A stretch of DNA of 64,000 bases from Lysobacterales bacterium (lineage in GTDB: Bacteria; Pseudomonadota; Gammaproteobacteria; Xanthomonadales; Rhodanobacteraceae), in contig JBBSOU010000002.1 of NCBI GenBank assembly GCA_038259445.1, forward strand, positions 561-64,560. The letters are read 5' to 3'. The position numbers and the translations under genes were made by a program. The first letter of the stretch is position 1. Each line of letters begins with the position of its first letter. Under the pieces are notes generated by a model. It worked only from the letters and a program-made list of their open reading frames with translations, had not been told where the DNA came from and did no database searches. Shown piece after piece: positions 11,635 through 33,602 of this stretch.

Positions 11635-11676
11635 TGTCATCAACTCTAGACACTGGCCCGTGGCCAGTCAACGACA
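11635..11676. promoter_or_regulatory. crtE/crtD divergent control region: PpsR-type palindrome pair overlapping a crtE promoter
   Basis: Perfect TGTCATCAACTCTAGACA (11635..11652), 6 nt, CGTGGCCAGTCAACGACA (11659..11676). On the minus sense, TTGACT (11671..11666)-N17-TAGAGT (11648..11643). Confidence 0.55.
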
Positions 11677-15467: not shown

Positions 15468-16977
15468 CGGGTACCACCGTATCGAGTACGCGCGCCGAAG
15501 ACAGCACGCCGGGCACGCCGGCACCGGGATGTGTTCCGGCCCCGACCAGGAAAAGGTTTTCGACATCTTCACTGCGATTGTGCGGACGGAACCACGCACT
15601 CTGGTGCAGCACCGGCTCCATGCCGAAGGCCGCGCCCTGGTAGGAGTTGAGGCGGTCCTTGAAGTCCTGCGGCGTGAGCACGCGCGAGGTCACGATGTGT
15701 GCGCCGAGTCCGGGCAACACGGTTTGCTCGAGACTCCTGCACAAGGCCTCACGGTAGCGCTCGGCGATCTCGTCCCAGCGCGTTCCGCTGCCGAGGTGCG
15801 GCACCGGCGACAGCACGTAGAACGCATCGCAGCCGGGCGGCGCGAGCGACGGATCGGTCGCGGTCGGGCGATGCAGATAGAGACTGAAATCATCAGCCAG
15901 CACCTTGTGCGCGAAGATGTCCTCAAGCAGGCCCTTGTAGCGCGGCCCGAGCAGGATGCTGTGATGCGGCACGTCCGCGTACTGGCGGTCGGTGCCGAAG
16001 TACCAGACGAACAGGCTCATCGAATAGCGCGCATTGTCGATGCGTCGATTGGTCCAGCGCCGCCGTGACGTGGCCGGAACCAGATGCCGATAGGTCCACG
16101 CCGAGTCGGCATTGGAAACGACCACGTCGGCATCGATGGTCGCACCGGAGGTGAGACGCACGCCGCGCGCCGTGCCGTTGTTGACGACGATCTCGGCGAC
16201 CTCGCGCTCGCAGGCAACCGTGCCACCCTGCCCTTCAATCAGGCCAACCAGTCCACGCACGAGTTGGCCGGTACCACCCATCGCGAAATGCACGCCCCAG
16301 CGGCGCTCGAGATAAGCGATCAGGCAATAGATCGACGGTGCAGAAAATGGATTGCCGCCGATCAGCAGCGGATGGAAGCTGAGCGCGACACGCAGGCGTG
16401 GATCCCTGATGAACCCGGAGACGAGGCCATGCACAGTGCGATAACTGGCCAGTCGCATCATCGCCGGCACGATGCGCAGCATGTCGGTGAATGAGTCGAA
16501 CGGCACGTGGCCGAGTTGTTCGAAGCCGACGCGGTAGATTTCCTCGCTGGCCTTCATGTAGCGGTGGAAACCGGCGACATCATCGGCCGAAAAGCGCGCG
16601 ACTTCGGCATCCATCGCGTCGGCATCGCCCGAGTAATTGAAGACCGCACCGTCGTCGAAACGAATGCTGTAGAACGGCGTTACCGGACGCAGTTCAACGT
16701 CGTCGGCAAGGCGCTTGCCGCACAGCGCCCACAGTTCCTCGAAAAGGAACGGCGCGGTGACGATGGTCGGACCGGCGTCGAAGGTGAAACCGTCCTGACG
16801 GTAGACGTAGGCACGACCACCGGGAGCATCGAGCTTTTCAAGCACGCTGACGCGATATCCGCGCGCTCCCAGCCGCACCGCTGCGGCGAGCCCGCCGAAG
16901 CCGCTGCCGATGACGACGGCGTGCGGTTTTTCGCCGGCGCCGCGTGGCGCAGTCGGCAAGCTGTGAAGTGTCAACAT
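15439..16977 (-). CDS. crtI: Phytoene desaturase
   Basis: HAVVIGSGFGGLAAAVRLGARGYRVSVLEKLDAPGGRAY and C-terminal LVGAGTHPGAGVPGVL. Confidence 0.95.
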   Translation of the reverse strand: MLTLHSLPTAPRGAGEKPHAVVIGSGFGGLAAAVRLGARGYRVSVLEKLDAPGGRAYVYRQDGFTFDAGPTIVTAPFLFEELWALCGKRLADDVELRPVTPFYSIRFDDGAVFNYSGDADAMDAEVARFSADDVAGFHRYMKASEEIYRVGFEQLGHVPFDSFTDMLRIVPAMMRLASYRTVHGLVSGFIRDPRLRVALSFHPLLIGGNPFSAPSIYCLIAYLERRWGVHFAMGGTGQLVRGLVGLIEGQGGTVACEREVAEIVVNNGTARGVRLTSGATIDADVVVSNADSAWTYRHLVPATSRRRWTNRRIDNARYSMSLFVWYFGTDRQYADVPHHSILLGPRYKGLLEDIFAHKVLADDFSLYLHRPTATDPSLAPPGCDAFYVLSPVPHLGSGTRWDEIAERYREALCRSLEQTVLPGLGAHIVTSRVLTPQDFKDRLNSYQGAAFGMEPVLHQSAWFRPHNRSEDVENLFLVGAGTHPGAGVPGVLSSARVLDTVVPDAVTFARAS

Positions 16978-17011
16978 CTTGTGACAATATAGAAGTCAGA
17001 TTGAACTGACA
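16969..17011. promoter_or_regulatory. crtI/idi divergent control region with PpsR-type palindrome pair
   Basis: Perfect TGTCAACATCTTGTGACA (16969..16986, spans the crtI ATG), 7 nt, AGTCAGATTGAACTGACA (16994..17011). Minus sense has TTGTCA-N15-TATATT ending 8 nt before the crtI ATG. Confidence 0.5.
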
Positions 17012-22247: not shown

Positions 22248-22916
22248 ATGCACGCTGATTCCGACTCCGTGTCACTGGCAGCCCGCCTGCGTGCCGGCAC
22301 GCGCGACCTGCACGGTCGCGCCGAGCGCACTGGTGTGATGCGCCCGCTGCTGCGCGGCACGCTCGAACGCGATCGCTACTGCCTGCTGTTGCGCAACCTG
22401 CATGCGATCTATGCCGCTCTCGAACACTGCCTCGACCAGCACGCCCGCCACGCCGGGCTGGTACTCATCCACGATCGCGCTTTGCACCGCGCCGCAGCAC
22501 TGCGTGCCGATCTCGTGCACCTGCACGGCAGCCGCTGGGAATCCGAGCTCGCGCTCGCCGTGCACGCGCGCGATTACGCCGGACACCTGCATCACCTGTC
22601 GGACCGTGATCCGTTGCATTTGGCCGCGCATGCGTACGTGCGCTATCTCGGCGACCTCAATGGCGGCCAGATGCTCGCGCGGATCGTGCAGCGGTCATTG
22701 CAGTTGCACGATGACAATGGAACGGCGTTCTACCGCTTCACGACCGAAGCGCCGTCAGTGCTCGAACCCCGGCTGCGCTCGGGCCTCGATGCGCTCGCAC
22801 TCTCGGCAGACGACCGTGACACCATCGTCGACGAAGCTCGCCAGGCTTTCATCCGGCATTGCGACCTGTTCGAGGAACTCTCGGCGATGGCGATTCAGTC
22901 GCGATCGCGGGTGTAG
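22248..22916 (+). CDS. bphO: Heme oxygenase (biliverdin-producing, phytochrome-associated type)
   Basis: LRAGTRDLHGRAERTGVMRPLL..YLGDLNGGQML are heme oxygenase family features. Adjacent to the bacteriophytochrome. Confidence 0.85.
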   Translation: MHADSDSVSLAARLRAGTRDLHGRAERTGVMRPLLRGTLERDRYCLLLRNLHAIYAALEHCLDQHARHAGLVLIHDRALHRAAALRADLVHLHGSRWESELALAVHARDYAGHLHHLSDRDPLHLAAHAYVRYLGDLNGGQMLARIVQRSLQLHDDNGTAFYRFTTEAPSVLEPRLRSGLDALALSADDRDTIVDEARQAFIRHCDLFEELSAMAIQSRSRV

Positions 22917-25117
22917 ACGCCGAACTGCTCGTAGATCGCCGTAGCGCGCCGGGTCGCTTCCTGCAACTCGTCGATCAGGCGCGCGACCGCAGGATTGGCA
23001 CCGCCATCGACAATGTCGAGTGCGGCAATGCGCGTGCTCGCATGGATCGCGCCGACCACGCCATCGCCGACCTCGGCGAATGCATCGATGGCTGCACCAC
23101 GACTCGGGAAACTGCCGTCGGGATTCAACGCACCCTCGAGCTCGCGCCGCGCATGATCGGCATTCTTCGCCGCGGTCAGGTCCACGAATATCAGGATATA
23201 GCCGAGTCTGTCGCCGTTTGATCCGGCAACCACATCGGCACGCACGCCGACCGGAACCGGCGTCGAGGTCTGGGCCAGGAAACACAGTTCGCCGCGCCAC
23301 GGAACGCCCTTCTCGCGCAATGTCTTGAGCATGCCGAAGGCCGCTTCGGGATCGGTGAACGCGGCGGCCAGTTCGTCGAGCGTGGCGAATCGCGTCGCGC
23401 CTTGGTTGACCGCCTTGTCGAACATGTCGTTGCTGTAGAGCACACGACTGTCGGCGGCGGCGATCACCACCGGCTCGCGCGAATTCTTGACCGTGACCCT
23501 GACCAGGTCGAGCTGGTGCTGCGCAATCAGCAGCCGCACGGCCTGGATCTGCAGGATCACGTCGATCAAGGTCGATCCGATCGCGCGTGCCAGCGCGATG
23601 TCGGCGTTGGACCATGGCACGGCCGTGCCGCGAACGATCTGTGACCACGCGGCGAACGATCGGCGCGGCGACAGGTTCATCGGATCGTTGTCGATGACTG
23701 CCTTGTTCGGATCGCCGGCCCAGGTGATCTCGCTGAGCTGTTCGCGTCGGAACCAGACCAGGAAGTCCGGACGCGACGTCGACAATTCGATCGCGAGAAT
23801 GCCGCTGGCGGTCGGACTGGACGGCGCCAGCGAGGGGAAATCGCGCTCGATCGACGCGCTGCAGTAGATGCCGTCGGCACAACGATCGACCATCGCATGG
23901 AGCAGTCCGCGCAATTGTGGCGTCGAAGGAACGTCGCCACTGGTCAGGATCTCGCCTTCGAAGTAAAGCGCTGCACCGGTCGCACCGAGCGGTTGCAGCA
24001 GCGTCTGCGGCGAGCGGAACAAGGCGCGTCGCCAGTCGCCGTCGGTCGAGGTTGCGTCGATCAGGCGCTGTTCCAGCGCGCGCACGAGAATGACGCCCTG
24101 CGCGTGCGCATAGTTCTCGACCGCACTGATGCGCATCGAGATCACTTCAGCGAGCAAGCCACAGGCGGCGCGCAGCGAGCAGCTGACGTGGCGCGGTGTG
24201 TAGTGGTGGCAGGCGATCAGCCCCCAGAGTCGCCCCTCGCGCACCAGCGACACCACCAGCGTCGCCGTCACGCCCATGTTCTTGAGGTACTGCAAGTGCA
24301 ACGGCGACATGCTGCGCAATCCGCACAGTGACATGTCCAGGCCATCGCCGTGCGGAGCTATCGGCACCGGTTCGTAGTTGACGTCGACCAGGATGCGGAC
24401 CCGGTTGTTGACGTAGAGCGCACGCGCGCGCTGCGGAATGTCGGTCGCAGGGTAATGATGTCCGAGCAGGGAATCGAGCGACGGATCGCACGCTTCGGCG
24501 ATGATTTCACCGTGCCCGTCGGGATCGAACTTGTACACCATGACCCGGTCGTATCCGACCAGCTCGCGCAGCGTGTGCACGGCGGTATCGGCCAGCATCG
24601 GAATGGTCGTGGCGGTCGTGATGCGCTCGACGGTAGCGGCCAGCATCGTCTGCAACAGCAAAGGCGTCGACACGCGGGCGATTTCGTCCTCGCTGCCGCG
24701 ATCGATCGGCTCAAGTTCGACGATCAGCAGTCCGTCGGCATTCCGATGCAGCGCGCCTTCGAACCAGAGGGTGCGGTCGGCGCCGACCGGGCGCAGATGG
24801 CAGGTCAGCGCCTTCGCCTCGGCAAGATCATGACTCGACACGAGACCGCGCACGCGCGCACCGAAATCGCCACCGAGTGCGTCAATCGGATGGCCGATCC
24901 AGGCATCGGTGGCGACACCGAACTGCTGACCGGCATTCGCGCTCGCGCTGCGTACCGTGAAGTTCGCGGGATCCAGCACGAACAGCCATCCATGCGGCTG
25001 GATCGATCCGGCCAGATGGATCAGTTCACGCTCGCAATTGGTCAGGTCGGCCTGGCCGAACGCCGGAGCGACGGCGACCTCGATCTTCGATGCAACGAGT
25101 GCGCCGCGGCGATTCAT
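22895..25117 (-). CDS. bphP: Bacteriophytochrome with PAS/PAC plus helical (HOS-like) output, no histidine kinase
   Basis: DLTNCERELIHLAGSIQPHGWLFVL (chromophore Cys), YPATDIPQRARALY (DIP), LSPRRSF (PRxSF tongue). The C-terminal 230 aa have no H-box or ATPase motifs. Confidence 0.92.
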   Translation of the reverse strand: MNRRGALVASKIEVAVAPAFGQADLTNCERELIHLAGSIQPHGWLFVLDPANFTVRSASANAGQQFGVATDAWIGHPIDALGGDFGARVRGLVSSHDLAEAKALTCHLRPVGADRTLWFEGALHRNADGLLIVELEPIDRGSEDEIARVSTPLLLQTMLAATVERITTATTIPMLADTAVHTLRELVGYDRVMVYKFDPDGHGEIIAEACDPSLDSLLGHHYPATDIPQRARALYVNNRVRILVDVNYEPVPIAPHGDGLDMSLCGLRSMSPLHLQYLKNMGVTATLVVSLVREGRLWGLIACHHYTPRHVSCSLRAACGLLAEVISMRISAVENYAHAQGVILVRALEQRLIDATSTDGDWRRALFRSPQTLLQPLGATGAALYFEGEILTSGDVPSTPQLRGLLHAMVDRCADGIYCSASIERDFPSLAPSSPTASGILAIELSTSRPDFLVWFRREQLSEITWAGDPNKAVIDNDPMNLSPRRSFAAWSQIVRGTAVPWSNADIALARAIGSTLIDVILQIQAVRLLIAQHQLDLVRVTVKNSREPVVIAAADSRVLYSNDMFDKAVNQGATRFATLDELAAAFTDPEAAFGMLKTLREKGVPWRGELCFLAQTSTPVPVGVRADVVAGSNGDRLGYILIFVDLTAAKNADHARRELEGALNPDGSFPSRGAAIDAFAEVGDGVVGAIHASTRIAALDIVDGGANPAVARLIDELQEATRRATAIYEQFGVYTRDRD

Positions 25118-25179
25118 GGGCGATCAGGGGCTGCGCGGAGGGGAGCGGCGAAGCGCGGGCTCGAAGCCTGCTCGGGACT

Positions 25180-26397
25180 TCAATGGAAATGCCGCTGGCG
25201 GGCGCGTGAACCTGACGCGTCCAGTCCGAGCGGTTCATGCACCACGTGAATCGTGAAGCCGATCGCTTTCGCATCATCGATCAGCGCGGCAGAAACTTCG
25301 ATTTCGAGCGGGGCGGCGTCACCGCGCAGCAACTGCGCACGCAACAGGCCGGAACTGCCATTGGCGCGGATCGTGGCGATCAGCGCGGCAATCGGAGCGG
25401 ATTCCGTACGCAGCCACGCCGACAGAGCGGTGCCGTCAAGCGAGTCCCCGGCATCGGCGTGGACGAGATCGCGGAACGATTTGTTCGCAAAGATGATCCG
25501 GCCGGTAGTGGCGCAGATCACGACCGCGTCGCACAGGCTCTCGAGCAGCTTGACGACCAGCGAATCGGCACGCGCGACGGTGCTGGCGACGACAACCGGG
25601 GCGTCGTCGAGCGATCCGATGCGCAGCAACAGCACGCTGCCGGCGTCGGCATCGCAGACTTCGATCGTCACACCGAGGTCGATGTCGCGATCGAGCAGGC
25701 GGATGTGGTGCTGGCGCGAGCGCTCGGCGAATCGCGCGGAGTCGAACAGTTGCCCGAGGACCGGCTGCGAGGACTGATCCATCGTGGCGTACAGCGACAA
25801 GCCGATCATCGCTTCCATGCCGAGACGGAACAGCGCAGCGGCAGCATCGTTGGCATCGACCACGGCAAAGGTCACCGGATCGATGAGCAGCAAGGGCCCT
25901 TCCGACTGCCCAAACAGCAGACGGTGGCGAGTTTCGAATTTGCGCCGCTGCCAATAGTCGCGCTCGATCGACTGCTGTGCATCGAGCAGGCGCTGCTGCA
26001 GCGCTGAAACCAGGCGCAGGTCGCGTCCAACGGCCAAAGTGAGACCGCACTGACCCAGTCGAACGGCGGTGTAGGCGACCGGAATCTCGACGCCCAGCGC
26101 AGACGGGTGCGTCAGTTGGCGTTGTCGGGAGACACCACTGCTGCCGACATCGGCTAGAAATTCATCGACCTTGAGTCGCGTTTCAACGGTGACCGTGTCG
26201 GTCCAGCGACGCCCGACCCACGCGTTGGCGCCGTGATCGTCGGCCTGCGACGGGCCGCAGGCCACATTCGTGATGACGCCGTCTTCATCGATAACGAGGG
26301 CAATGTCACACGCTACCGTCACCAGCATTTCCGCCAGCTCGGGGGCCAATCGAGACAGTGGGCTCAGATCTGCCGGCCCACCGTTTCCGGTGCTCAT
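25180..26397 (-). CDS. PpsR/CrtJ-like PAS protein lacking the C-terminal HTH
   Basis: Collinear with the full-length PpsR at 30902..32326, including the Q-linker (LQQRLLDAQQSIERDYWQRRKFETRHRLLF). Stops about 20 aa after the last PAS. Only 62 nt remain before bphP. Confidence 0.85.
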   Translation of the reverse strand: MSTGNGGPADLSPLSRLAPELAEMLVTVACDIALVIDEDGVITNVACGPSQADDHGANAWVGRRWTDTVTVETRLKVDEFLADVGSSGVSRQRQLTHPSALGVEIPVAYTAVRLGQCGLTLAVGRDLRLVSALQQRLLDAQQSIERDYWQRRKFETRHRLLFGQSEGPLLLIDPVTFAVVDANDAAAALFRLGMEAMIGLSLYATMDQSSQPVLGQLFDSARFAERSRQHHIRLLDRDIDLGVTIEVCDADAGSVLLLRIGSLDDAPVVVASTVARADSLVVKLLESLCDAVVICATTGRIIFANKSFRDLVHADAGDSLDGTALSAWLRTESAPIAALIATIRANGSSGLLRAQLLRGDAAPLEIEVSAALIDDAKAIGFTIHVVHEPLGLDASGSRARQRHFH

Positions 26398-26480
26398 TAC
26401 CTGCTCCTGCTCAGCGTGCGCGGATGCGACGCCTGTCCATCGACAACCAAGTCACGTTGCTGTCCCTCGCGATCATAGTC

Positions 26481-26792
26481 CTATTTCGCACACTGCGGTG
26501 AACGGGTTTGCGCATGCGTCAGCCAGCGCCTCGACACATCGAGCAGGTGACCGGCGAACGAAGCGGTCAGCGCAGCGCCGATCCACGGCCACGACATGCC
26601 GCCGAGTGCCGCACGCAGGGCCAGCAGAAGGCAGAATCCGGAAGCGAGATTGGCCAGCATGTCGACAAAGGCGATGCCACGGCCGGTGCGGCGATGATGC
26701 AGCCCGAGCACGATCGCTTCGATCACCATCACCAGCAGCACGAGGTCCACGACCCGGCCGCTGCTGAAAAACTCCTGCATGGCTGCTTGCAT
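26481..26792 (-). CDS. Hypothetical 3-TM membrane protein (103 aa)
   Basis: High-GC3 frame, three hydrophobic segments. Lies between tspO and the ppsR-like gene on the same strand. No family recognised. Confidence 0.5.
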   Translation of the reverse strand: MQAAMQEFFSSGRVVDLVLLVMVIEAIVLGLHHRRTGRGIAFVDMLANLASGFCLLLALRAALGGMSWPWIGAALTASFAGHLLDVSRRWLTHAQTRSPQCAK

Positions 26793-26814
26793 CGTTGTCG
26801 CGACCGTTAGCCGC

Positions 26815-27309
26815 TCAGTTGCCGGCGAACGGACCGTTCAGGCGCACGATCGTCAAGTTGAGGAACGCGGCGAAAGAAACCCACAGCAGGTAGGGTGTCA
26901 ACAGCCAGCTCGATGCGCGCGAATACGGCCACATGATCACCATCAGCGTGACGATCGAGGACCACAGCAACGCCACTTCGTAGAGCGCGTAGTCGGGACG
27001 GTGCATGCGGAAGAACAGCAGGCTCCAGGTGACGTTGAGCACGATGTTGACGAGAAACAGGATGACCATGCGACGACGGCTGCCGACATCGGGCGCGCGG
27101 CGCCAGGCGAGCAGTGACGAGATCGCGGCAAGAAGAAAGATGGTCGTCCAGACCGGTCCGAACAACCAGTCCGGCGGCTGCCAGGACGGCTTCTGCAACG
27201 CGTAGTACCACTCGCCGATATCGGTCGTCAGCGCGCCGCCCGCGCTCACTACCACGGTCAGCAGCAGCGCCAGTCCGACGGGTTTCCAGGTCAGTCGAGG
27301 GACTTGCAT
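26815..27309 (-). CDS. tspO: Tryptophan-rich sensory protein
   Basis: GEWYYALQKPSWQPPDWLFGPVWTTIF is the TspO/MBR signature. ATGA overlap with bchP stop. Confidence 0.92.
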   Translation of the reverse strand: MQVPRLTWKPVGLALLLTVVVSAGGALTTDIGEWYYALQKPSWQPPDWLFGPVWTTIFLLAAISSLLAWRRAPDVGSRRRMVILFLVNIVLNVTWSLLFFRMHRPDYALYEVALLWSSIVTLMVIMWPYSRASSWLLTPYLLWVSFAAFLNLTIVRLNGPFAGN

Positions 27310-28523
27310 CAGGCTGGCCGCAAGCCGAGCAGATGGGCGATGTCCTTGAAGAAGATACGTACATGCGCCATCGGCTTGGCACGCACCAGTTCCTTGTTCA
27401 TGTAGGCCTCGAAAGTGAGTTTCTGCACATCGGGATCCTTGCAGATGGTGACGAAGCGCTCGCGTCGACGCTCGGTCGTGTACCAGAACCGCTGCATGAT
27501 CCCCAGCACCCAGAATACCTTGCCATGCAGCTTCATGAAGCGTTTGCGCGCGAGTTTGAGCGAACGCACGTCGCCGGTGGCCAGCAGTGCCTCGACCGCC
27601 TGCGCGGCGAATTGTCCGCCAACCATCGCATAGTAGATACCCTCGCCCGAGGCCGGCGCGACGACGCCAGCCGCATCGCCGGCGAGCACGACGTCCTTGC
27701 CGTTGTCCCAGCGTGACAGCGGCTTCATCGGGATGGGCGCGCCTTCGCGACGGATCGTTTCGCCATCGAGTCCGCTGGCGCTGCGCAGTGCACTGACCGA
27801 GGCACGCAGCGAAAATCCCTTGTGTGCGCTGCCGGTGCCAACGCTGGTGGTATCACCGTGCGGGAAAACCCACGAATAGAAATCCGGTGAAAGCGCGCCG
27901 CGGTAGACGACGTCACACCGCTGCGCGTCGAAGCCCGGAGGCGTTTGCGCCGCGGCCGGCGAACGGATGATCTCGTGATAGGCGAACACGTAGCGCATCT
28001 TGTCGGCGCCGGGAATGGTCTGTCGCGCCACTTCAGAGGTCGCACCATCGGCGCCGATCACCGCACGCGCGCGCACCCGGCGCATCGATTTCTCGCCATC
28101 GCGCAGCGACGCGTTGTACTCGATCACGGCGGTGCCGTCGGCATCGCGCGAAAAGCGCTTGAACATGCCTGCACGCAATTCGGCTCCGCTTTCGACGGCA
28201 CGCTCGCGCAGCCACGGATCGAAGGCATCGCGGTCGACCATGCCGACGAAGCCGTTTTCGATCGGGATGTCGACGTTCTTCGCGGAAGGCGCGACCATGC
28301 GCGCAGAGGTGATTCGCGCGACCAGCAGTTCGTCGGGCACGTCGAAATCGCGGATCAGTCGCGGTGGAATCGCGCCGCCACAGGGTTTCGGTCGTCCGGC
28401 GCGATCGAGCAGCAGCACCGACCTCCCGCTGGCCGCGAGCTGGCGTGCAGCGGTCGCGCCGGAAGGCCCGCCACCGACGACGACGACATCGAACGATTCG
28501 GTCTCACTGGGTGGCAGGTTCAT
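27309..28523 (-). CDS. bchP: Geranylgeranyl diphosphate / bacteriochlorophyllide reductase
   Basis: Internal Met: MNLPPSETESFDVVVVGGGPSGATAARQLA..CGGAIP. ATGA overlap with the upstream pucC-like gene. Confidence 0.93.
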   Translation of the reverse strand: MNLPPSETESFDVVVVGGGPSGATAARQLAASGRSVLLLDRAGRPKPCGGAIPPRLIRDFDVPDELLVARITSARMVAPSAKNVDIPIENGFVGMVDRDAFDPWLRERAVESGAELRAGMFKRFSRDADGTAVIEYNASLRDGEKSMRRVRARAVIGADGATSEVARQTIPGADKMRYVFAYHEIIRSPAAAQTPPGFDAQRCDVVYRGALSPDFYSWVFPHGDTTSVGTGSAHKGFSLRASVSALRSASGLDGETIRREGAPIPMKPLSRWDNGKDVVLAGDAAGVVAPASGEGIYYAMVGGQFAAQAVEALLATGDVRSLKLARKRFMKLHGKVFWVLGIMQRFWYTTERRRERFVTICKDPDVQKLTFEAYMNKELVRAKPMAHVRIFFKDIAHLLGLRPA

Positions 28524-29878
28524 GCAGCTTTCTCCCCATTGGTCATCGCATTCGCGAGGTCGGCAAGCGGCCTGGACGATTGCGACGATACGGTCGATTG
28601 GTGGACACCTGCAGCGATCACTGCGGCGACCATGAACAGCAGTCCTTCGACTGCAAAGACGATTCCATAGGCCATGCCCTGCGAGTCGAGCAGCACGCGC
28701 GCGAGGTCGCTTCCGGCGGCGCCGAGAAAGCCGCCGACGCCGAACGCGATGGCCTGTGCCGCACCCCACAACCCCATGCGCACGCCTTCCCGCGACTCTC
28801 TACCCGCGCCGGCCAGGGCCATCATCGAGCCGATCGCCGCAACCGCGAACGCGCCGTTCGAGGCGCCGAGCAGAAACACGTTGAGCGAGAGCGGCCAGCC
28901 CGGACCAACCCAGCCGGCGACGGCCAGACCTGCCAGTGCGAATGATGAGGCGATGCAGCCGAGGATGGTCCATGTGCGCAGCGAACCGAGACGCGGTCCG
29001 CCGATGATCGAGCACGCCACCGCAACGAGGATCATGCCAAGCAGTACGCCGCTGTTCTGGACGCCGGAAAGCTGTGTCGATTGTCCCGGCGTCATGCCGA
29101 ACACCGAGCCGGCGAACGGCTCGAGGATCAGATCCTGCGCGCTGTAGGCAAGCATCGAGACGAACACGAATCTCGTGAAGCGGCGCGCCTGCGGCTCGCT
29201 CCAGACCTGCGCAAGCGCTTCGCGAAAGGCCGGCTTGACCACGACCGCGGCGGCATCGCCGACGACGATCGGTCGCACTGGCGGCTCGAGGCCGCGCACG
29301 ACCAGCAAAGTCAGCGCCAGCGCGACGATCGAGACCACGGCGGTGATGGCGACGAGGCGACTGGCCGAGTACGGATCGAGGACCTTGCCGACCGCCAGCG
29401 TGGTGACGACGAAGCCGAGGATCATCATCACCCAGACCACGGTTGCCGCCGCGGCGCGGCGGCGCTCGACGACGCGCTTGGCGAGCAACACGAGCAGCGA
29501 GGTTCCGGCAGCGCCGACGCCGACACCGATCAGCATGAAGGCGATCGCCGCCAGCACGATGCCGGCGCTCACGTTGGTCTCCATCCAGCCGATCGCGATC
29601 GCTGCGAGCACCGCGCCGATGCCGAGCGTGACAATGCCGCCGATGATCCATGGCGTGCGCCGTCCGCCGACGTCTGATCCGTAACCGAATCGCGGACGCA
29701 ACATCTGCACCGCGTAATGCAGTAGCACGAGTGCGCCAGGCAGCATCGCCGGCAGCGCCAGTTCGACGACCATGATGCGGTTCATGGTCGAGGTCGACAG
29801 CACGACGATCGAGCCAAGCGCGGTCTGCACGAGGCCGAGCCTGACGATGCCGCCCCAACCGAGCATGGCGGCGCTCAT
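28520..29878 (-). CDS. PucC/LhaA-family MFS protein (bch2-like)
   Basis: MSAAMLGWGGIVRLGLVQTALGSIVVLSTSTMNRIMVVELALPA. 12-TM character. Lies between bchG and bchP. ATGA overlaps on both sides. Confidence 0.87.
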   Translation of the reverse strand: MSAAMLGWGGIVRLGLVQTALGSIVVLSTSTMNRIMVVELALPAMLPGALVLLHYAVQMLRPRFGYGSDVGGRRTPWIIGGIVTLGIGAVLAAIAIGWMETNVSAGIVLAAIAFMLIGVGVGAAGTSLLVLLAKRVVERRRAAAATVVWVMMILGFVVTTLAVGKVLDPYSASRLVAITAVVSIVALALTLLVVRGLEPPVRPIVVGDAAAVVVKPAFREALAQVWSEPQARRFTRFVFVSMLAYSAQDLILEPFAGSVFGMTPGQSTQLSGVQNSGVLLGMILVAVACSIIGGPRLGSLRTWTILGCIASSFALAGLAVAGWVGPGWPLSLNVFLLGASNGAFAVAAIGSMMALAGAGRESREGVRMGLWGAAQAIAFGVGGFLGAAGSDLARVLLDSQGMAYGIVFAVEGLLFMVAAVIAAGVHQSTVSSQSSRPLADLANAMTNGEKAA

Positions 29879-30801
29879 GCGCCGGCCTTGACGAGGTCGC
29901 GCAGTGCAAATGCGCTGACCAGCATGCCGATCACGTACAAGGTGACGCCGAGCCCGCTGTACCAGATGGCACGCTCGAATGGACTCTGCAGAAACCGCCA
30001 CATCAGCGCGAGTTGCGCAACCAGCAGAGCACCGACCGCGATCGCGTAGCCGTCCTGGCCCCAGAACATCAACTGGAAGACAACGACGACCTGGGCCAGC
30101 GCCATGAACGCGCACGCGACCAGAGCAGCGCCGTCGGCACCGAGCAGGACCGGCAACGAATCGATGCCCATCTTCTCGTCGCCGACCATCGACTTGAAAT
30201 CGTTGAGCGTCATGATGCCGTGCGCACCTAGGCTGTAGACCACCGCGAGCAGGATCGAGCGCGGGTCGGGCATCGTGCCGGCGACCATGACGGCACCACC
30301 GGTGACCCATGCGAGACCTTCATAACTGAAACCACAGGCGGCATTGCCGAGCCAGCCGTTGCGCTTCAGTCGCAACGGCGGCGCACTGTAGGCCCAGGCG
30401 AGCACGAGTCCGACCACGGCGGCGCCGAAGCCCCATGGACCGAGCAGCGATGCAACGAGCAGGGACAGGCCAGTCCACAGGATGGCCAGATACAAGCCCC
30501 AGCGCCCGGGCACTCGCCCCGACGGAATCGGCCGTTTTGGTTCGTTGATGGCGTCGACATGGCGATCGAACCAGTCATTGACCACCTGGCTGGTCGCGCA
30601 CACGAGCGGTCCGGCCAGAATGATGCCGACAATGATCAGCAGCCAGTTGCCTTGCGCCGGCATGCCCGACGCCACCGCACCGCAGGCGAACGCCCACATC
30701 GGCGGGAACCAGGTGATCGGCTTGAGGAGTTCCGCAACGGCAGAAAGGGCAGGCCGAGCCATGCAAATCCAGGAGAAGACGCGCGATCGAGGGTTGCACA
30801 T
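29875..30801 (-). CDS. bchG: Bacteriochlorophyll a synthase
   Basis: UbiA prenyltransferase. ELLKPITWFPPMWAFACGAVASG and NDWFDRHVDAINEP. An alternative start is the Met at 30762. Confidence 0.9.
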   Translation of the reverse strand: MCNPRSRVFSWICMARPALSAVAELLKPITWFPPMWAFACGAVASGMPAQGNWLLIIVGIILAGPLVCATSQVVNDWFDRHVDAINEPKRPIPSGRVPGRWGLYLAILWTGLSLLVASLLGPWGFGAAVVGLVLAWAYSAPPLRLKRNGWLGNAACGFSYEGLAWVTGGAVMVAGTMPDPRSILLAVVYSLGAHGIMTLNDFKSMVGDEKMGIDSLPVLLGADGAALVACAFMALAQVVVVFQLMFWGQDGYAIAVGALLVAQLALMWRFLQSPFERAIWYSGLGVTLYVIGMLVSAFALRDLVKAGA

Positions 30802-30813
30802 GACACCGCAACC

Positions 30814-30831
30814 TGTCCAGCCTTGTTGACA
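30814..30831. promoter_or_regulatory. Single consensus PpsR-type palindrome upstream of bchG
   Basis: TGTCCAGCCTTGTTGACA (TGT-N12-ACA) in the 100-nt ppsR-bchG gap. Confidence 0.4.
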
Positions 30832-30901: not shown

Positions 30902-32326
30902 TCAGCCCGGCGGATTCTCGTCGGCGTCGGTCGCCGGATCGATCAGACCATAACGGCGCAGTTTGACGTAGAGGCTCTGCCGACTCAGACCGAGCACCTC
31001 GGCTGCCGACGCGCGGTTGTCCTGGGTCAGCTGCAGCGCGGCTTCAATGCACAGTTTCTCGATCAGGTCGGTGGCATCGCGGACCAATTCCTTGAGTGGC
31101 ACGCGGCCAACCAGTTCGGTCAACTGCTCGACCGAGCGCGGCTGATGGACCGCACTCTCGATCACGTCGGCGGTCACTCGCCGGCCAACGTTGCGGATGT
31201 TGAAGCCGAGACAGGGCGGGTCAGCCATCGGGATCGAGACACCCGATATTTCCACATCGGCGGCCGCGCCGTGCTCACCGGTCAGGGTGGTCGAGAACAG
31301 GCGGATCGTGCCGTGCTGGCGCAGGTTGGCCATGAGCACGCTGAAATCCACGCGCGAACGACCGATCCAGCGATCGAGCGACTCGCCGCGCACCTGTGAT
31401 TCAGAGGGCATCTGGGCAAGATCGAGAAAGGCGCGATTGGATGCAACGATGTTGCCATCGATGTCGGTGACGGCGAACGCATCAGCGGAATGCTCGACGG
31501 CCCTGAGGACGGTCCTCGGCAGCATCGCGTTGCCGACCTCGGCACGCGCCGCGGAAATCCGCAGCAGGTACAGCGCGTCGTTGCCTTGCCGGAAATAGAA
31601 CGACGACACCGAGTACTCGCGGCGGTCGGCACCCAAGCGTATCGAGACGTCATCTGCACGCACTGCGGTGCGCACGCCGGCGATCAAGGTGTGCACGACG
31701 TGCACGCTTTCAGCACCGAAACATTCGACCAGCGTGCGTCCGACGACGCGTTTGCCCGCTTCGCCGAGCAAGTCGCCCGCGGTTGGATTCGCCTCGATCA
31801 CCTTCTCGGTGGCGGCATCGATGATGAGGATCGCCTCGGAAGACATCTGGAACAGCACGCGGTAACGCGTTTCGACATTGCGCAGTCGCCAGTAGTCGCG
31901 CTCCATCGACTGTTGCGCGTCGACCAGCCGCTGTTGCAGGTTGGCCATGTCGCGCAGGTCGCGCCCGAACACGACGATGCGTCCCTGACTGCCGAGCTTG
32001 ACCGCGGAGTACAGCACGGGCACGTCGGCACCGCGCGTGGAACTGTGATTGACGTGGCGCCATTTGTGGTCGCCATTGCTGCCGGCATCGCGCAACAGCG
32101 CTTCCACCTTTGACCGGCTATCCGGAGTGACCGTCTCGATCCACGGCTGGTCGATCCATTTTCGGTAGCCCTCGCGCGCCATCTCGGCGCTGCCGAACGA
32201 CACGTCGAGAACGACGCCATCGGCATCGAGCACCAGCGAGACATCGGCCGCCGCCGACACCAGAGCCGCCGCCGCCGCCGCGTCGAGACTGCCCAGCACG
32301 ACGCCAGGGCTTTCGACGGGGATCAC
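30902..32326 (-). CDS. ppsR: Photosynthesis gene repressor PpsR/CrtJ (full length)
   Basis: PAS-Q-PAS-PAS plus C-terminal Fis-type HTH: LIEKLCIEAALQLTQDNRASAAEVLGLSRQSLYVKLRRYGL. Confidence 0.93.
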   Translation of the reverse strand: MIPVESPGVVLGSLDAAAAAALVSAAADVSLVLDADGVVLDVSFGSAEMAREGYRKWIDQPWIETVTPDSRSKVEALLRDAGSNGDHKWRHVNHSSTRGADVPVLYSAVKLGSQGRIVVFGRDLRDMANLQQRLVDAQQSMERDYWRLRNVETRYRVLFQMSSEAILIIDAATEKVIEANPTAGDLLGEAGKRVVGRTLVECFGAESVHVVHTLIAGVRTAVRADDVSIRLGADRREYSVSSFYFRQGNDALYLLRISAARAEVGNAMLPRTVLRAVEHSADAFAVTDIDGNIVASNRAFLDLAQMPSESQVRGESLDRWIGRSRVDFSVLMANLRQHGTIRLFSTTLTGEHGAAADVEISGVSIPMADPPCLGFNIRNVGRRVTADVIESAVHQPRSVEQLTELVGRVPLKELVRDATDLIEKLCIEAALQLTQDNRASAAEVLGLSRQSLYVKLRRYGLIDPATDADENPPG

Positions 32327-32428: not shown

Positions 32429-33352
32429 TCAGCGTTCGCGCAGCGTGACCAGCATTTCCGCATGCGCGAGCGCATCGCGCGGATCACACGCACAGGCATC
32501 CGCGCCGAGCCCATTGGCGAACTCCGGATGCGCATCGAAAACCTGTCCACCAATCATCATTCCGACCCTGGCATTGCGCGATACCTTGCGCAGGTCGGCC
32601 AGGTCGGCCACGAGCAGCGGCAGGCGAGCTTCGCAGGTTGCCGAAATGTCGATCACGTCGAACCAGTTCGAGCCGACGATATCGAGCAACTGCGCGCGTG
32701 AACGCGGTGGCGCGCGCCACACTTCCCAGCCGGCGCGATGAAAGAACTCGGCGGAAAGGCAACGATAGAACTCGGTGACCATGTAGACGCCAAGCATGCT
32801 CTGTTCACCCGGCGCAGATAGCAGCAGCGCCTTCGGACCCTGCGGGCGACACTCGCCTTCGTCCGAAAACTCCGGACTGAGCTCGCGCAGCACCTGTTGC
32901 AGGTGAAGCATGCCTATCGCGATTTCCTCGTAATGACAGAGATCGGCCTCCCACAGATCCGACAGGCGACGCGCCGCCGGCATCAGCAGGTCGAGATAGA
33001 TCGATTCGAGTGGCACGTCGCTGGCGCGGCGTCTGGCGACCGACTCGAACGCCGCCGTCATCTCCGGCGCCATGATCAGGTCGGTGAAGGCAATGACGTC
33101 GGCCGTATTCAGCCCGCCGTCCGCTGCGGAGGTCACAAGCGGCGACCGCTGCGTGCGGTGCGCCACCATCAATCGCGGGATGACCTCGCACTGAAGTGTT
33201 CGCGCCAGAGCCCCGGGCGAACCTGCGTCGTCGGCGACTACACCATGCGCGGCATGTGCCGCGGCTGCGGCTCCACTTCCACTGCGCAGGCTTTCCGCAT
33301 CATTGTTCCATGCACCCTCGCGGGCTGCGTGGTCCTGTCTCAAGCCGTTCAT
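32429..33352 (-). CDS. aerR: AerR/PpaA-type regulator with B12-binding-like (SCHIC) domain
   Basis: C-terminal Rossmann-like domain LLLSAPGEQSMLG...DISAT...MIGGQVF. Synteny between bchF and ppsR. Start chosen at MNGLRQDH, preceded by GGGGGAGGAAACCAG. Confidence 0.78.
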   Translation of the reverse strand: MNGLRQDHAAREGAWNNDAESLRSGSGAAAAAHAAHGVVADDAGSPGALARTLQCEVIPRLMVAHRTQRSPLVTSAADGGLNTADVIAFTDLIMAPEMTAAFESVARRRASDVPLESIYLDLLMPAARRLSDLWEADLCHYEEIAIGMLHLQQVLRELSPEFSDEGECRPQGPKALLLSAPGEQSMLGVYMVTEFYRCLSAEFFHRAGWEVWRAPPRSRAQLLDIVGSNWFDVIDISATCEARLPLLVADLADLRKVSRNARVGMMIGGQVFDAHPEFANGLGADACACDPRDALAHAEMLVTLRER

Positions 33353-33602
33353 CTGGTTTCCTCCCCCAAACACGCGACGATTGGAACGCTTCGTCGCTGG
33401 GGTGAGGCTCTGGGCTGCCTGAAGCGCCCGGTCCACCCTCGTTTCAGGTCTCTGCCGACTCGGCCGACCCGTTTTTGGCGACGAACCCTTGCCTTCACGA
33501 AGATGAATGCCGGGTGAAGTTTCACCCGCTTCAAGGCAATCCGGATCGTCCCACCGAAGGCGAGGTTCGTCAACTTGGGTTTTGAGTACTGCGTTCAAAG
33601 AG

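What the first reader, a model, noticed from the sequence alone, without database searches (positions are those of the whole stretch)
25180..26397. Natural HTH-less PpsR paralog immediately upstream of a non-kinase bacteriophytochrome
What the sequence shows:
- The 405-aa product aligns by eye along its whole length with the full-length PpsR at 30902..32326. This covers the N-PAS, a near-identical Q-linker (LQQRLLDAQQSIERDYWQRRKFETRHRLLF vs LQQRLVDAQQSMERDYWRLRNVETRYRVLF), PAS1 and PAS2.
- It terminates about 20 residues after PAS2.
- Only 62 nt separate its stop from the bphP start, so there is no room for a frameshifted Fis-type HTH remnant.

Established knowledge: in Rhodopseudomonas palustris, the PAS/PAC-HOS phytochrome BphP1 binds the DNA-binding repressor PpsR2 under far-red light. 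An engineered truncated fragment (Q-linker plus PAS1) is enough for that interaction.

Inference: a genomic PpsR that cannot bind DNA could act as a light-controlled decoy or hetero-oligomerising anti-repressor of the canonical PpsR/AerR pair encoded 5 kb away. I do not recall this circuit layout being described.
Basis: partly seen in the sequence, partly recalled or inferred. Interest (0 to 1): 0.78.

Follow-up and report, generated by a model that had tools for sequence, protein, structure and literature searches.

The report
Conserved PpsR paralog without DNA-binding domain
Next to a far-red light sensor in a bacterial photosynthesis gene cluster sits a copy of the photosynthesis repressor PpsR that has lost its DNA-binding end; it is a conserved gene family, so light control here probably works through protein-protein contacts rather than direct DNA binding.

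Summary
ORF 25180..26397(-) encodes a 405-aa PpsR homologue with N-PAS, Q-linker, PAS1 and PAS2. It stops 19 residues after PAS2. No Fis-type HTH exists in any frame, and the 62-nt spacer before bphP is as described.

It is not a recent pseudogene.
- It belongs to a family of about 390-417-aa HTH-less proteins: 43 of the best 120 database hits, 41-47% identical to it.
- Members end at the same point, usually with [VILF]-His.
- dN/dS is 0.02-0.07 in close pairs.
- Members occur in Gammaproteobacteria (Nevskia, Panacagrimonas, Dokdonella, Rhodanobacteraceae) and Betaproteobacteria (Methyloversatilis).
- 15 of 16 HTH-less genes in fetched loci lie immediately upstream of an RpBphP1-like, kinase-less phytochrome.
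- 12 of 12 cluster-embedded loci with enough flank also keep a canonical aerR-ppsR pair.

Phylogeny and an N-terminal signature place the family in the phytochrome-linked (PpsR2-like) lineage. A second lineage in Burkholiales-type clusters (Burkholderiales) has independently crippled its HTH.

The mechanism is inferred, not shown: a far-red-controlled partner acting by protein-protein contacts, most likely on canonical PpsR. No description was found in the literature searched. I rate it a new variant of a known system, of moderate to high interest.

The parts
25180..26397 (-). Short (HTH-less) PpsR paralog, 405 aa. Layout: N-cap and N-PAS (aa 10-126), Q-linker helix (aa 127-163), PAS1 (aa 164-262), PAS2 (aa 276-386), disordered tail (aa 387-405).
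   Evidence: domains, PpsR homology, no HTH; AlphaFold2 model, mean pLDDT 80.9; best structural match is 4HH2, 'PpsR without the HTH motif'; purifying selection in orthologues
25909..26019 (-). Q-linker coding segment (aa 127-163). It contains residues invariant in the short family: Q134, Q141, E145, W149, R152, E155, R157, F162.
   Evidence: By my hand mapping of the alignment, Q141 and E145 correspond to Gln134 and Glu138 of the R. sphaeroides PpsR tetramer interface (PMC3949515).
25180..25188 (-). Conserved natural C-terminus: Phe404-His405 followed by the stop codon. The last two residues are [VILF]-His in 31-32 of 35 family members.
25118..25179 (-). 62-nt spacer between the short ppsR stop and the bphP start. 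It holds no terminator-like site and no HTH remnant.
22895..25117 (-). Bacteriophytochrome, 740 aa: PAS2-GAF-PHY-PAS9 plus a two-helix C-terminus (HOS-like). It has no histidine-kinase domains and has an N-terminal Cys in the NCERE motif.
   Evidence: Pfam; RpBphP1 4GW9, E=1.2e-164, aligned over residues 15-654; C-terminal two-helix region conserved
22248..22916 (+). Heme oxygenase (hmuO/bphO), convergent with bphP. Their 3' ends overlap by 22 nt.
   Evidence: PF01126, E=6e-50. Same position in L001, L002, L004, L005, L006 and L090.
26481..26792 (-). Small predicted membrane protein (103 aa, no Pfam family) between tspO and the short ppsR.
   Evidence: 53-62% identical homologues; present in 14 of 15 short-PpsR loci and in some HTH-type loci
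26815..27309 (-). tspO
30902..32326 (-). Canonical full-length PpsR (474 aa) with a Fis-type HTH. It belongs to the aerR-linked clade.
   Evidence: (TIGR02040, 506 bits)
32429..33598 (-). AerR/PpaA-like B12-binding protein. The listed TTG start is probably too far upstream, because homologues are 283-314 aa.
   Evidence: for homologue lengths

Best explanation
The gene encodes a functional member of a conserved family of PpsR2-lineage proteins that have lost the C-terminal Fis-type HTH. They keep the N-PAS, Q-linker, PAS1 and PAS2 domains.

It is very probably co-transcribed with an RpBphP1-type phytochrome that has a PAS9-HOS output and no kinase. A heme oxygenase that makes the phytochrome's biliverdin lies alongside.

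Shown:
- homology, absence of the HTH, and a conserved end point;
- purifying selection;
- synteny with bphP and hmuO;
- co-occurrence with a canonical aerR-ppsR pair;
- membership of the phytochrome-linked PpsR lineage.

Inferred:
- The protein is the physical partner of the phytochrome, binding it in the far-red-activated Pr state through Q-linker and PAS1, as RpPpsR2 and QPAS1 do.
- Because it cannot bind DNA, it passes the signal on by protein-protein contact.
- The most likely target is the canonical PpsR. The short protein keeps the Q-linker and PAS2 oligomerisation surfaces, so mixed dimers or tetramers could form that carry too few HTHs to bind the paired TGT-N12-ACA sites cooperatively.
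- The phytochrome would then set, by light, how much short protein is free to do this.
- The sign of the response cannot be deduced from sequence: far-red light could derepress or repress.
For: Anatomy:
- triple-PAS PpsR fold, best structural match 4HH2.
- no HTH in any frame and no detached HTH ORF.

Family:
- 43 of the best 120 hits stop 14-19 residues after PAS2.
- 35-member alignment with a conserved terminal [VILF]-His.
- roughly a dozen clusters at 50% identity have this architecture.

Selection:
- dN/dS 0.02-0.07 at dS 0.25-0.31.

Synteny:
- 15 of 16 short genes in loci are directly upstream of bphP.
- 12 of 12 cluster-embedded loci with enough flank also carry aerR-ppsR(HTH).

Lineage:
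- the aerR-linked clade has 100% bootstrap and the short clade 67%.
- the N-cap motif DLSxLSxxAPELA is shared with bphP-linked HTH-bearing proteins (57% identity) but not with aerR-linked ones (28%).
- The gene order bphP-ppsR-...-bchP-MFS-bchG-ppsR matches Bradyrhizobium BrBphP-ppsR2-cycA-bchP-MFS-bchG-ppsR1 (PMC10569730).

Phytochrome:
- an RpBphP1 relative with the HOS region retained.

Mechanistic precedent:
- Q-linker plus PAS1 of RpPpsR2 suffices to bind BphP1 (PMC13058837 citing Redchuk 2017).
- R. sphaeroides PpsR without its HTH still forms dimers and tetramers, Kd about 0.9 uM (PMC3949515).
- Q-linker interface residues are invariant in the short family.
- A second phytochrome-linked lineage deleted 23 residues of its HTH and lost the basic recognition-helix residues. 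This argues that DNA binding is dispensable for this paralog specifically.
Against: - No binding was or could be tested here.
- Q-linker conservation is family-wide, so it does not single out hetero-oligomerisation.
- In the window protein the PAS2-side interface pair is Gly-Leu. Arg is the commonest residue at the first of these positions in the family alignment (17 of 35; Leu 26 of 35 at the second).
- One lineage (P0048/P0129; loci L006, L088, L089) has the trio with no photosynthesis genes nearby. A cluster-encoded PpsR may therefore not be the universal target.
- The published SAXS model of RpBphP1-RpPpsR2 pairs the HOS with the PpsR2 HTH (PMC6899989).
- Bootstrap support for a single origin of the short clade is moderate (67%).
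Confidence: 0.55

Rival explanations
1. It is a phytochrome-only accessory. The short protein binds the BphP, for example tuning its photocycle, dark reversion or oligomeric state, or acting as a buffer. Alternatively it relays the signal to targets other than PpsR. It does not form mixed oligomers with the canonical repressor.
For: - Tight, often near-overlapping linkage to bphP in all lineages.
- The trio short-PpsR-bphP-hmuO occurs away from any photosynthesis genes in three contigs, next to a PAS-GGDEF gene.
- The most conserved part is an N-cap specific to the phytochrome-linked lineage.
Against: - In 12 of 12 cluster-embedded loci with enough flank, a canonical aerR-ppsR pair is kept about 5.5-6.3 kb away.
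- The N-PAS, Q-linker and PAS2 oligomerisation modules are retained, although Q-PAS1 alone is enough for BphP1 binding.
- No alternative output domain is present.
Confidence: 0.25
2. It is an independent redox, heme or tetrapyrrole sensor. The PAS domains and the conserved C-terminal His would bind a cofactor, and the protein would act on PpsR, or on heme oxygenase or TspO-related tetrapyrrole traffic. Its position next to bphP would be only inherited synteny.
For: - The terminal [VILF]-His is conserved in 31-32 of 35 members although the preceding 15 residues vary.
- The neighbours are hmuO, tspO and a conserved small membrane protein.
- Heme binding by PpsR is reported in the literature (cited in PMC3949515).
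Against: - No cofactor-binding signature was found.
- The tail is predicted to be disordered.
- Linkage to bphP is kept even where the surrounding cluster is absent. That argues for a functional tie to the phytochrome.
Confidence: 0.12
3. It is a recent truncation, frameshift pseudogene or assembly artefact of a normal PpsR2.
For: - NCBIfam scores it below the PpsR cut-off.
- In Methyloversatilis sp. RAC08 the orthologue is split into two ORFs, so decay does occur in some strains.
Against: - The same end point recurs in dozens of proteins only 41-47% identical to it.
- The identical protein is found in an independent assembly of run SRR24807092.
- dN/dS is 0.02-0.07.
- There is no HTH remnant in any frame.
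- The terminal residues are conserved.
Confidence: 0.02
4. It still binds DNA through a non-HTH surface and acts as a conventional repressor.
For: None from the tools used here.
Against: - No DNA-binding domain was found by Pfam, NCBIfam or structure prediction.
- There is no TGT-N12-ACA site near the gene.
- PAS domains of PpsR are not known to contact DNA (my knowledge).
Confidence: 0.03

Closest known systems
RpPpsR2 / Bradyrhizobium PpsR2, the phytochrome-linked PpsR repressors, with their partners RpBphP1 / BrBphP
   Same: - The gene sits directly beside a PAS9-HOS, kinase-less bacteriophytochrome.
- It occupies the same slot of the cluster: bphP-ppsR2-...-bchP-MFS-bchG-ppsR1.
- It has the N-PAS, Q-linker, PAS1, PAS2 architecture.
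- It groups with bphP-linked, not aerR-linked, PpsR proteins and shares their N-cap motif.
   Different: - It has no HTH, so it cannot be a DNA-binding repressor.
- It ends in a short disordered tail with a conserved terminal His.
- I could not obtain the RpPpsR2 sequence itself. Lineage assignment rests on bphP-linked homologues from Burkholderiales and on synteny.
QPAS1, the engineered Q-linker plus PAS1 fragment of RpPpsR2 used in optogenetics
   Same: It is an HTH-less PpsR2 derivative. QPAS1 shows that BphP1 binding does not need the HTH.
   Different: - QPAS1 is a monomeric laboratory fragment, three times smaller than PpsR2.
- The natural protein keeps N-PAS and PAS2, the modules that drive dimer and tetramer formation.
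- The natural protein is under selection in genomes.
R. sphaeroides PpsR-deltaHTH crystallisation construct (PDB 4HH2)
   Same: - It has almost the same domain content and length.
- It is the best sequence and fold match.
- The construct still forms dimers and tetramers.
   Different: - It is an artificial truncation of a canonical, AppA-regulated PpsR.
- It shares about 24-25% sequence identity with the window protein.
- It has no phytochrome partner.
PpsR antirepressors AppA (BLUF-SCHIC), AerR/PpaA (B12) and LdaP (LOV)
   Same: The proposed role is the same: a protein that changes PpsR activity in response to light by direct binding. AppA binds the Q-linker.
   Different: - The folds are unrelated.
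- Those proteins carry their own chromophore. Here sensing would be delegated to a separate phytochrome, and the effector is a paralog of the repressor itself.
- Binding to PpsR is not shown.
Dominant-negative paralogs lacking a DNA-binding region, such as Id proteins among HLH factors (analogy from my own knowledge, not tested)
   Same: The concept is the same: a dimerisation-competent relative without a DNA-binding part titrates or poisons the DNA-binding factor.
   Different: The protein families and the domain of life differ. This is an analogy only.

Membership tests
PpsR/CrtJ transcriptional repressors (NCBIfam TIGR02040) | N-PAS, Q-linker, PAS1, PAS2 core homologous to PpsR | tested here: met
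   - TIGR02040 matches profile positions 2-359, E=9e-69.
- 33% identity to the window's PpsR.
- 4HH2 is the best sequence and fold match.
PpsR/CrtJ transcriptional repressors (NCBIfam TIGR02040) | C-terminal Fis-type helix-turn-helix (Pfam HTH_8) | tested here: not met
   - No HTH_8 hit.
- Profile positions 360-442 are unmatched.
- No remnant in six frames.
- No detached HTH ORF.
- The AlphaFold tail 389-405 is disordered.
PpsR/CrtJ transcriptional repressors (NCBIfam TIGR02040) | Whole-protein score above the curated cut-off (275.4 bits) | tested here: not met
   232.6 bits
PpsR/CrtJ transcriptional repressors (NCBIfam TIGR02040) | Binds paired TGT-N12-ACA sites | not testable with these tools
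   The window holds 7 such sites, which is the chance level. None is near 25118..26480.
BphP1-PpsR2 far-red signalling pair (R. palustris / Bradyrhizobium type) | PpsR-family gene adjacent to a phytochrome with PAS9-HOS output and no kinase | tested here: met
   - 62-nt gap on the same strand.
- The BphP has no kinase domains and is an RpBphP1 relative.
- The HOS region is conserved.
BphP1-PpsR2 far-red signalling pair (R. palustris / Bradyrhizobium type) | Partner belongs to the phytochrome-linked PpsR lineage, distinct from the aerR-linked PpsR | tested here: met
   - It lies outside the aerR-linked clade, which has 100% bootstrap.
- It shares the N-cap signature with bphP-linked HTH-bearing proteins.
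- Synteny matches Bradyrhizobium ppsR2.
- RpPpsR2 itself was not in the tree.
BphP1-PpsR2 far-red signalling pair (R. palustris / Bradyrhizobium type) | Partner contains the Q-linker and PAS1 that suffice for BphP1 binding | tested here: met
   Q helix at 127-163 and PAS1 at 164-262 are present and confidently modelled. The sufficiency of Q-PAS1 comes from the literature.
BphP1-PpsR2 far-red signalling pair (R. palustris / Bradyrhizobium type) | Partner is itself a DNA-binding repressor released from DNA on phytochrome binding | tested here: not met
   No HTH
BphP1-PpsR2 far-red signalling pair (R. palustris / Bradyrhizobium type) | Light-dependent physical interaction with the phytochrome | not testable with these tools
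   This needs pull-down, two-hybrid or complex structure prediction.
PpsR antirepressors (AppA, AerR/PpaA, LdaP) | Binds PpsR and alters its DNA binding | not testable with these tools
   Only indirect evidence exists: oligomerisation modules and Q-linker interface residues are retained.
PpsR antirepressors (AppA, AerR/PpaA, LdaP) | Own photosensory or cofactor domain (BLUF/SCHIC, B12-binding, LOV) | tested here: not met
   Only generic PAS hits were found. There are no BLUF, B12-binding or LOV signatures.

The most novel reading that the evidence does not exclude
Phytochrome-linked PpsR paralogs have repeatedly shed their DNA-binding domain: the short family, the Burkholderiales tail-deletion family and possibly P0041/P0099. 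The reason would be that their core job is not to bind DNA. Instead they would act as a far-red-light-gated dominant-negative or co-regulatory subunit of the canonical PpsR oligomer.

The window would then encode a three-protein relay, BphP to HTH-less PpsR to PpsR/AerR. This is a regulatory layout not described for photosynthesis gene clusters. It would also be a natural counterpart of the engineered QPAS1 tool.
Probability: 0.35. Interest if true: 0.78.

Novelty: new variant of a known kind. Interest (0 to 1): 0.62.

Why it matters
Far-red control of photosystem synthesis is understood from two alphaproteobacterial models, R. palustris and Bradyrhizobium. In both, the phytochrome inactivates a DNA-binding PpsR2.

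- **A different wiring.** A conserved, selected PpsR2 relative that cannot bind DNA shows that several beta- and gammaproteobacterial lineages with photosynthesis gene clusters must wire the same sensor differently.
- **A disputed mechanism.** The published SAXS model pairs the phytochrome's HOS helices with the partner's HTH. The QPAS1 result says Q-linker plus PAS1 is enough. Natural partners without any HTH, paired with phytochromes that keep their HOS, favour an HTH-independent contact.
- **Practical use.** These proteins are a ready-made pool of natural binding partners for near-infrared optogenetic tools.
- **Annotation.** Database names such as 'transcriptional regulator PpsR' are wrong for this family.

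Tried and rejected
- **Frameshifted or detached HTH.** I searched six frames of 24700..25500 and all open frames of at least 30 aa in 18 short-PpsR loci, including the whole window. Nothing was found except the canonical PpsR.
- **Recent pseudogene.** Rejected on conserved length, conserved terminal residues, dN/dS, and an identical copy in an independent assembly.
- **PpsR operator near the gene.** TGT-N12-ACA occurs 7 times in the window, against 7.4 expected by chance. None lies near 25118..26480.
- **Promoter and terminator scans of 22500..27500.** No promoter-like site was found, and no terminator between the short ppsR and bphP. This is uninformative for such GC-rich DNA.
- **Q-linker similarity as evidence for heteromerisation.** Rejected as non-specific, since conservation is equally high between all PpsR groups.
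- **Placing RpPpsR2 in the tree.** No supplementary file was held for the one paper tried, so RpPpsR2 is not in my tree.
- **Naming the source organism.** The exact protein is on an unnamed NCBI contig and in Logan run SRR24807092. The genome scan did not return the window's own genome.
- **Literature.** Seven full-text searches found no description of a natural HTH-less PpsR. Subscription-only papers are not covered.
- **Collections not used.** The phage, plasmid and E. coli collections and the RNA tools were judged irrelevant.
Full report
**1. What is in the window**

The ORF at 25180..26397 on the minus strand starts with ATG and encodes 405 aa. It lies in a photosynthesis gene cluster. Going upstream to downstream on the minus strand, the order is:
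- aerR-like (32429..33598)
- full-length ppsR (30902..32326)
- bchG (29875..30801)
- pucC/lhaA-type MFS
- bchP
- tspO (26815..27309)
- a small membrane ORF (26481..26792)
- the short ppsR
- bphP (22895..25117)

A convergent heme oxygenase lies at 22248..22916 (+). Beyond it are an alpha/beta hydrolase, bchI and bchD.

**2. Check of the observation**

The short protein aligns with the full-length PpsR over residues 33-386, with 33% identity and E=1e-56.
- Pfam finds only PAS domains in it and HTH_8 only in the 474-aa paralog.
- NCBIfam's PpsR-CrtJ model matches positions 2-359 of 442, at 232.6 bits against a cut-off of 275.4.
- The protein ends 19 residues after PAS2.
- The spacer to bphP is 62 nt.
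- A PpsR-HTH profile finds nothing in any frame of 24700..25500: at most 0.3 bits, against 79 bits for the control.
- Nothing else in the window matches that profile except the canonical PpsR.

An AlphaFold2 model built on a 35-sequence alignment has mean pLDDT 80.9. It shows three PAS domains, a long helix at 127-163 and a disordered tail at 389-405. Its best structural match is 4HH2, 'PpsR without the HTH motif'. That entry is also the best sequence match among solved structures.

The phytochrome has PAS_2-GAF-PHY plus a weak PAS hit and no kinase domains. It matches RpBphP1 (4GW9) at E=1.2e-164 through PAS9.

The Q-linkers of the two paralogs are 22/30 identical (my count of the two strings quoted in the finding). 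This segment is the most conserved part of all PpsR proteins.

**3. It is a family, not an accident**

A search of 5.8 billion proteins returned 446 relatives. Among the best 120, 43 including the query stop 14-19 residues after PAS2 and have no residues in the HTH columns. They are 391-417 aa long (a few have other called starts) and 41-47% identical to the window protein.

Named sources are Panacagrimonas, Dokdonella, Rhodanobacteraceae and Methyloversatilis. Their annotations read 'transcriptional regulator PpsR' or 'PAS domain-containing protein'. Nevskia appears in the genome scan.

A profile search of 1.84 billion cluster representatives shows roughly a dozen clusters at 50% identity with this architecture.

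In the alignment the last two residues are [VILF]-His in 31-32 of 35 sequences, although the preceding 15 residues vary. The stop position itself is therefore conserved.

Selection was measured as dN/dS:
- 0.02-0.07 between close Methyloversatilis orthologues (dS 0.25-0.31)
- 0.27-0.34 for distant, saturated pairs

The identical protein is also found in an independent assembly of run SRR24807092. These results reject a recent pseudogene or an assembly artefact.

**4. Genomic context elsewhere**

Contigs carrying short homologues from Panacagrimonas (L001), an unnamed MAG (L002, L003), Methyloversatilis (L004), a JGI metagenome (L005) and L090 show one order:

aerR - ppsR(HTH) - bchG - pucC - bchP - tspO - (small ORF) - short ppsR - bphP (727-730 aa) - hmuO (opposite strand)

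I classified every PpsR-like ORF in 86 loci plus the window with profiles for the PpsR core, the HTH, BphP and AerR:

| Class | Number | Context |
|---|---|---|
| Short, no HTH | 16 | 15 directly upstream of bphP |
| Intermediate tail | 2 | 2 directly upstream of bphP |
| HTH-bearing | 41 | directly upstream of bphP, often with overlapping stop and start |
| HTH-bearing | 35 | next to aerR |
| HTH-bearing | 11 | next to neither |

- The 41 bphP-linked HTH-bearing genes come mostly from Burkholderiales: Variovorax, Rubrivivax, Rhodoferax, Rhizobacter, Methylibium, Aquabacterium and others.
- All 12 cluster-embedded short-PpsR loci with enough upstream flank also hold the aerR-ppsR(HTH) pair.
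- The phytochromes linked to short, intermediate and HTH-bearing partners all keep the C-terminal two-helix (HOS) region.

**5. Lineage**

I built a neighbour-joining tree with 100 bootstraps on 361 core columns.
- The aerR-linked canonical PpsR proteins form a clade with 100% support.
- 39 of 42 short proteins form a clade that contains no HTH-bearing protein (67% support).
- P0041/P0099 fall outside it. They are 391 aa, lack the terminal His, and sit in the same synteny (L090), so they may be a separate loss.

The N-cap motif DLSxLSxxAPELAxxxV is shared by short and bphP-linked HTH-bearing proteins (57% identity). It is not shared with aerR-linked proteins (28%).

The gene order matches the published Bradyrhizobium order BrBphP - ppsR2 - cycA - bchP - MFS - bchG - ppsR1 (PMC10569730). 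The short protein is therefore a PpsR2-lineage protein that lost its HTH. I could not add RpPpsR2 itself to the tree.

**6. A second, independent decay**

Seventeen to nineteen of the best 120 hits have a 54-77-residue tail without an HTH_8 hit. Profile-profile alignment shows this tail is the HTH region with two changes:
- a 23-residue deletion that removes the first helix
- a recognition helix changed from 'SRxSLxRRxR' to 'SxESLxQ', so the basic residues are lost

All four such genes examined lie directly upstream of bphP at the border of Burkholderiales-type clusters (L023, L061, L091, L092). They nest among HTH-bearing proteins in the tree.

Loss of DNA binding has thus happened at least twice in the phytochrome-linked paralog. 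Among aerR-linked proteins I saw one case, an orphan in a Gemmatimonadota MAG (L065).

**7. How it most likely works**

Established knowledge:
- RpBphP1 in its far-red-generated Pr state binds PpsR2 and relieves repression (PMC6899989; PMC8707292).
- The Q-linker plus PAS1 of PpsR2 suffices for that binding (PMC13058837 citing Redchuk 2017).
- R. sphaeroides PpsR lacking its HTH still forms dimers and tetramers through N-domain, Q-linker and PAS2 contacts.
- AppA acts by binding the Q-linker and blocking tetramer formation (PMC3949515).

In the short family the conservation pattern is as follows:
- N-cap 82% mean pairwise identity
- Q-linker 69-70%
- N-PAS 61%
- PAS1 and PAS2 about 39%

By my hand mapping of the alignment, Q141 and E145 correspond to Gln134 and Glu138 of the R. 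sphaeroides tetramer interface; both are invariant in the short family. At the PAS2-side partner positions (350 and 351), Arg is the commonest residue at the first (17 of 35) and Leu at the second (26 of 35). The window protein has Gly-Leu there.

My inference is that the short protein binds the phytochrome as PpsR2 does. Having no DNA-binding domain, it passes the signal by protein contact. The most likely target is the canonical PpsR, through mixed oligomers that are poor at cooperative binding to paired operators.

The sign of the response cannot be read from sequence. Confidence levels:
- about 0.9 that this is a functional, conserved, phytochrome-linked HTH-less PpsR2 derivative
- about 0.4 for the PpsR-poisoning step
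- 0.55 for the composite statement

**8. Caveats and rivals**

- Q-linker conservation is family-wide.
- The SAXS-based model of the R. palustris complex uses an HOS-HTH four-helix bundle, which cannot form here.
- The lineage of P0048/P0129 has the trio outside any visible photosynthesis cluster in three contigs. A PAS-GGDEF gene lies upstream in all three, and tspO about 5 kb downstream in L088. A phytochrome-only accessory or another target is a serious alternative.
- The conserved terminal His, with hmuO and tspO as neighbours, leaves room for a cofactor-sensing role.

**9. Novelty**

Seven full-text searches found only three kinds of related report:
- the engineered truncations (QPAS1, PpsR-deltaHTH)
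- the two-PpsR systems of R. palustris and Bradyrhizobium
- the antirepressors AppA, AerR and LdaP

None describes a natural HTH-less PpsR. A 2025 review notes that Methyloversatilis has a photosynthesis cluster with no proof of expression (PMC12654162). I classify the finding as a new variant of a known kind.

Noticed in passing
window 25183..25188 (Phe404-His405); alignment A1: The short-PpsR family ends in a hydrophobic residue plus His in 31-32 of 35 members, although the 15 residues before it are not conserved and are predicted to be disordered. It may be a ligand or a docking or degradation signal. Its function is unknown.
   Followed up: partly
L023, L061, L091, L092; proteins P0035, P0038, P0045, P0058, P0102 and others: A second group of bphP-linked PpsR proteins (437-464 aa; Ideonella and other Burkholderiales MAGs) has a 23-residue deletion inside the HTH. 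It has also lost the basic recognition-helix residues. This is an independent decay of DNA binding.
   Followed up: partly
L006 8001..12283; L088 5940..10189; L089 4898..9162: The trio short PpsR - bphP - heme oxygenase occurs with no photosynthesis genes nearby in one lineage (P0048/P0129). A PAS-GGDEF gene lies upstream in all three contigs. In L088, tspO lies about 5 kb downstream and a GAF-guanylate-cyclase gene beyond it. Whether these genomes have a photosynthesis cluster or any PpsR elsewhere is unknown.
   Followed up: partly
window 26481..26792 (-): A 103-aa predicted membrane protein without a Pfam family lies between tspO and the short ppsR. It is 53-62% identical to ORFs at the same place in L001, L002 and L005. 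It is present in 14 of 15 short-PpsR loci and in some HTH-type loci.
   Followed up: partly
L065 5212..6354: A Gemmatimonadota MAG carries an orphan 380-aa HTH-less PpsR of the canonical (aerR-linked) clade. It lies among MgtC/DUF4010, TonB-receptor and phospholipase D genes and has no HTH remnant downstream. The same MAG has a full-length PpsR on another contig, L084.
   Followed up: partly
cluster of P0073: Methyloversatilis sp. RAC08 proteins AOF81811.1 and AOF80447.1: In strain RAC08 the short-PpsR orthologue appears as two separate ORFs of 194 and 200 aa. This is probably a strain-specific disruption.
   Followed up: no
window 22895..22916: The convergent bphP and heme oxygenase genes overlap by 22 nt at their 3' ends. 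Similar end-to-end overlaps are seen in L005, L006 and L090.
   Followed up: no
window 11635..11652, 16969..16986, 30814..30831: The count of TGT-N12-ACA sites is at chance level (7 found, 7.4 expected). Three of them are extended palindromes (TGTCA...TGACA-like) and are candidate PpsR operators. One lies just upstream of bchG, between bchG and ppsR.
   Followed up: no
window 32429..33598 (-): The aerR-like ORF as listed starts at a TTG and gives 389 aa, whereas homologues in related loci are 283-314 aa. The true start is probably further downstream.
   Followed up: no
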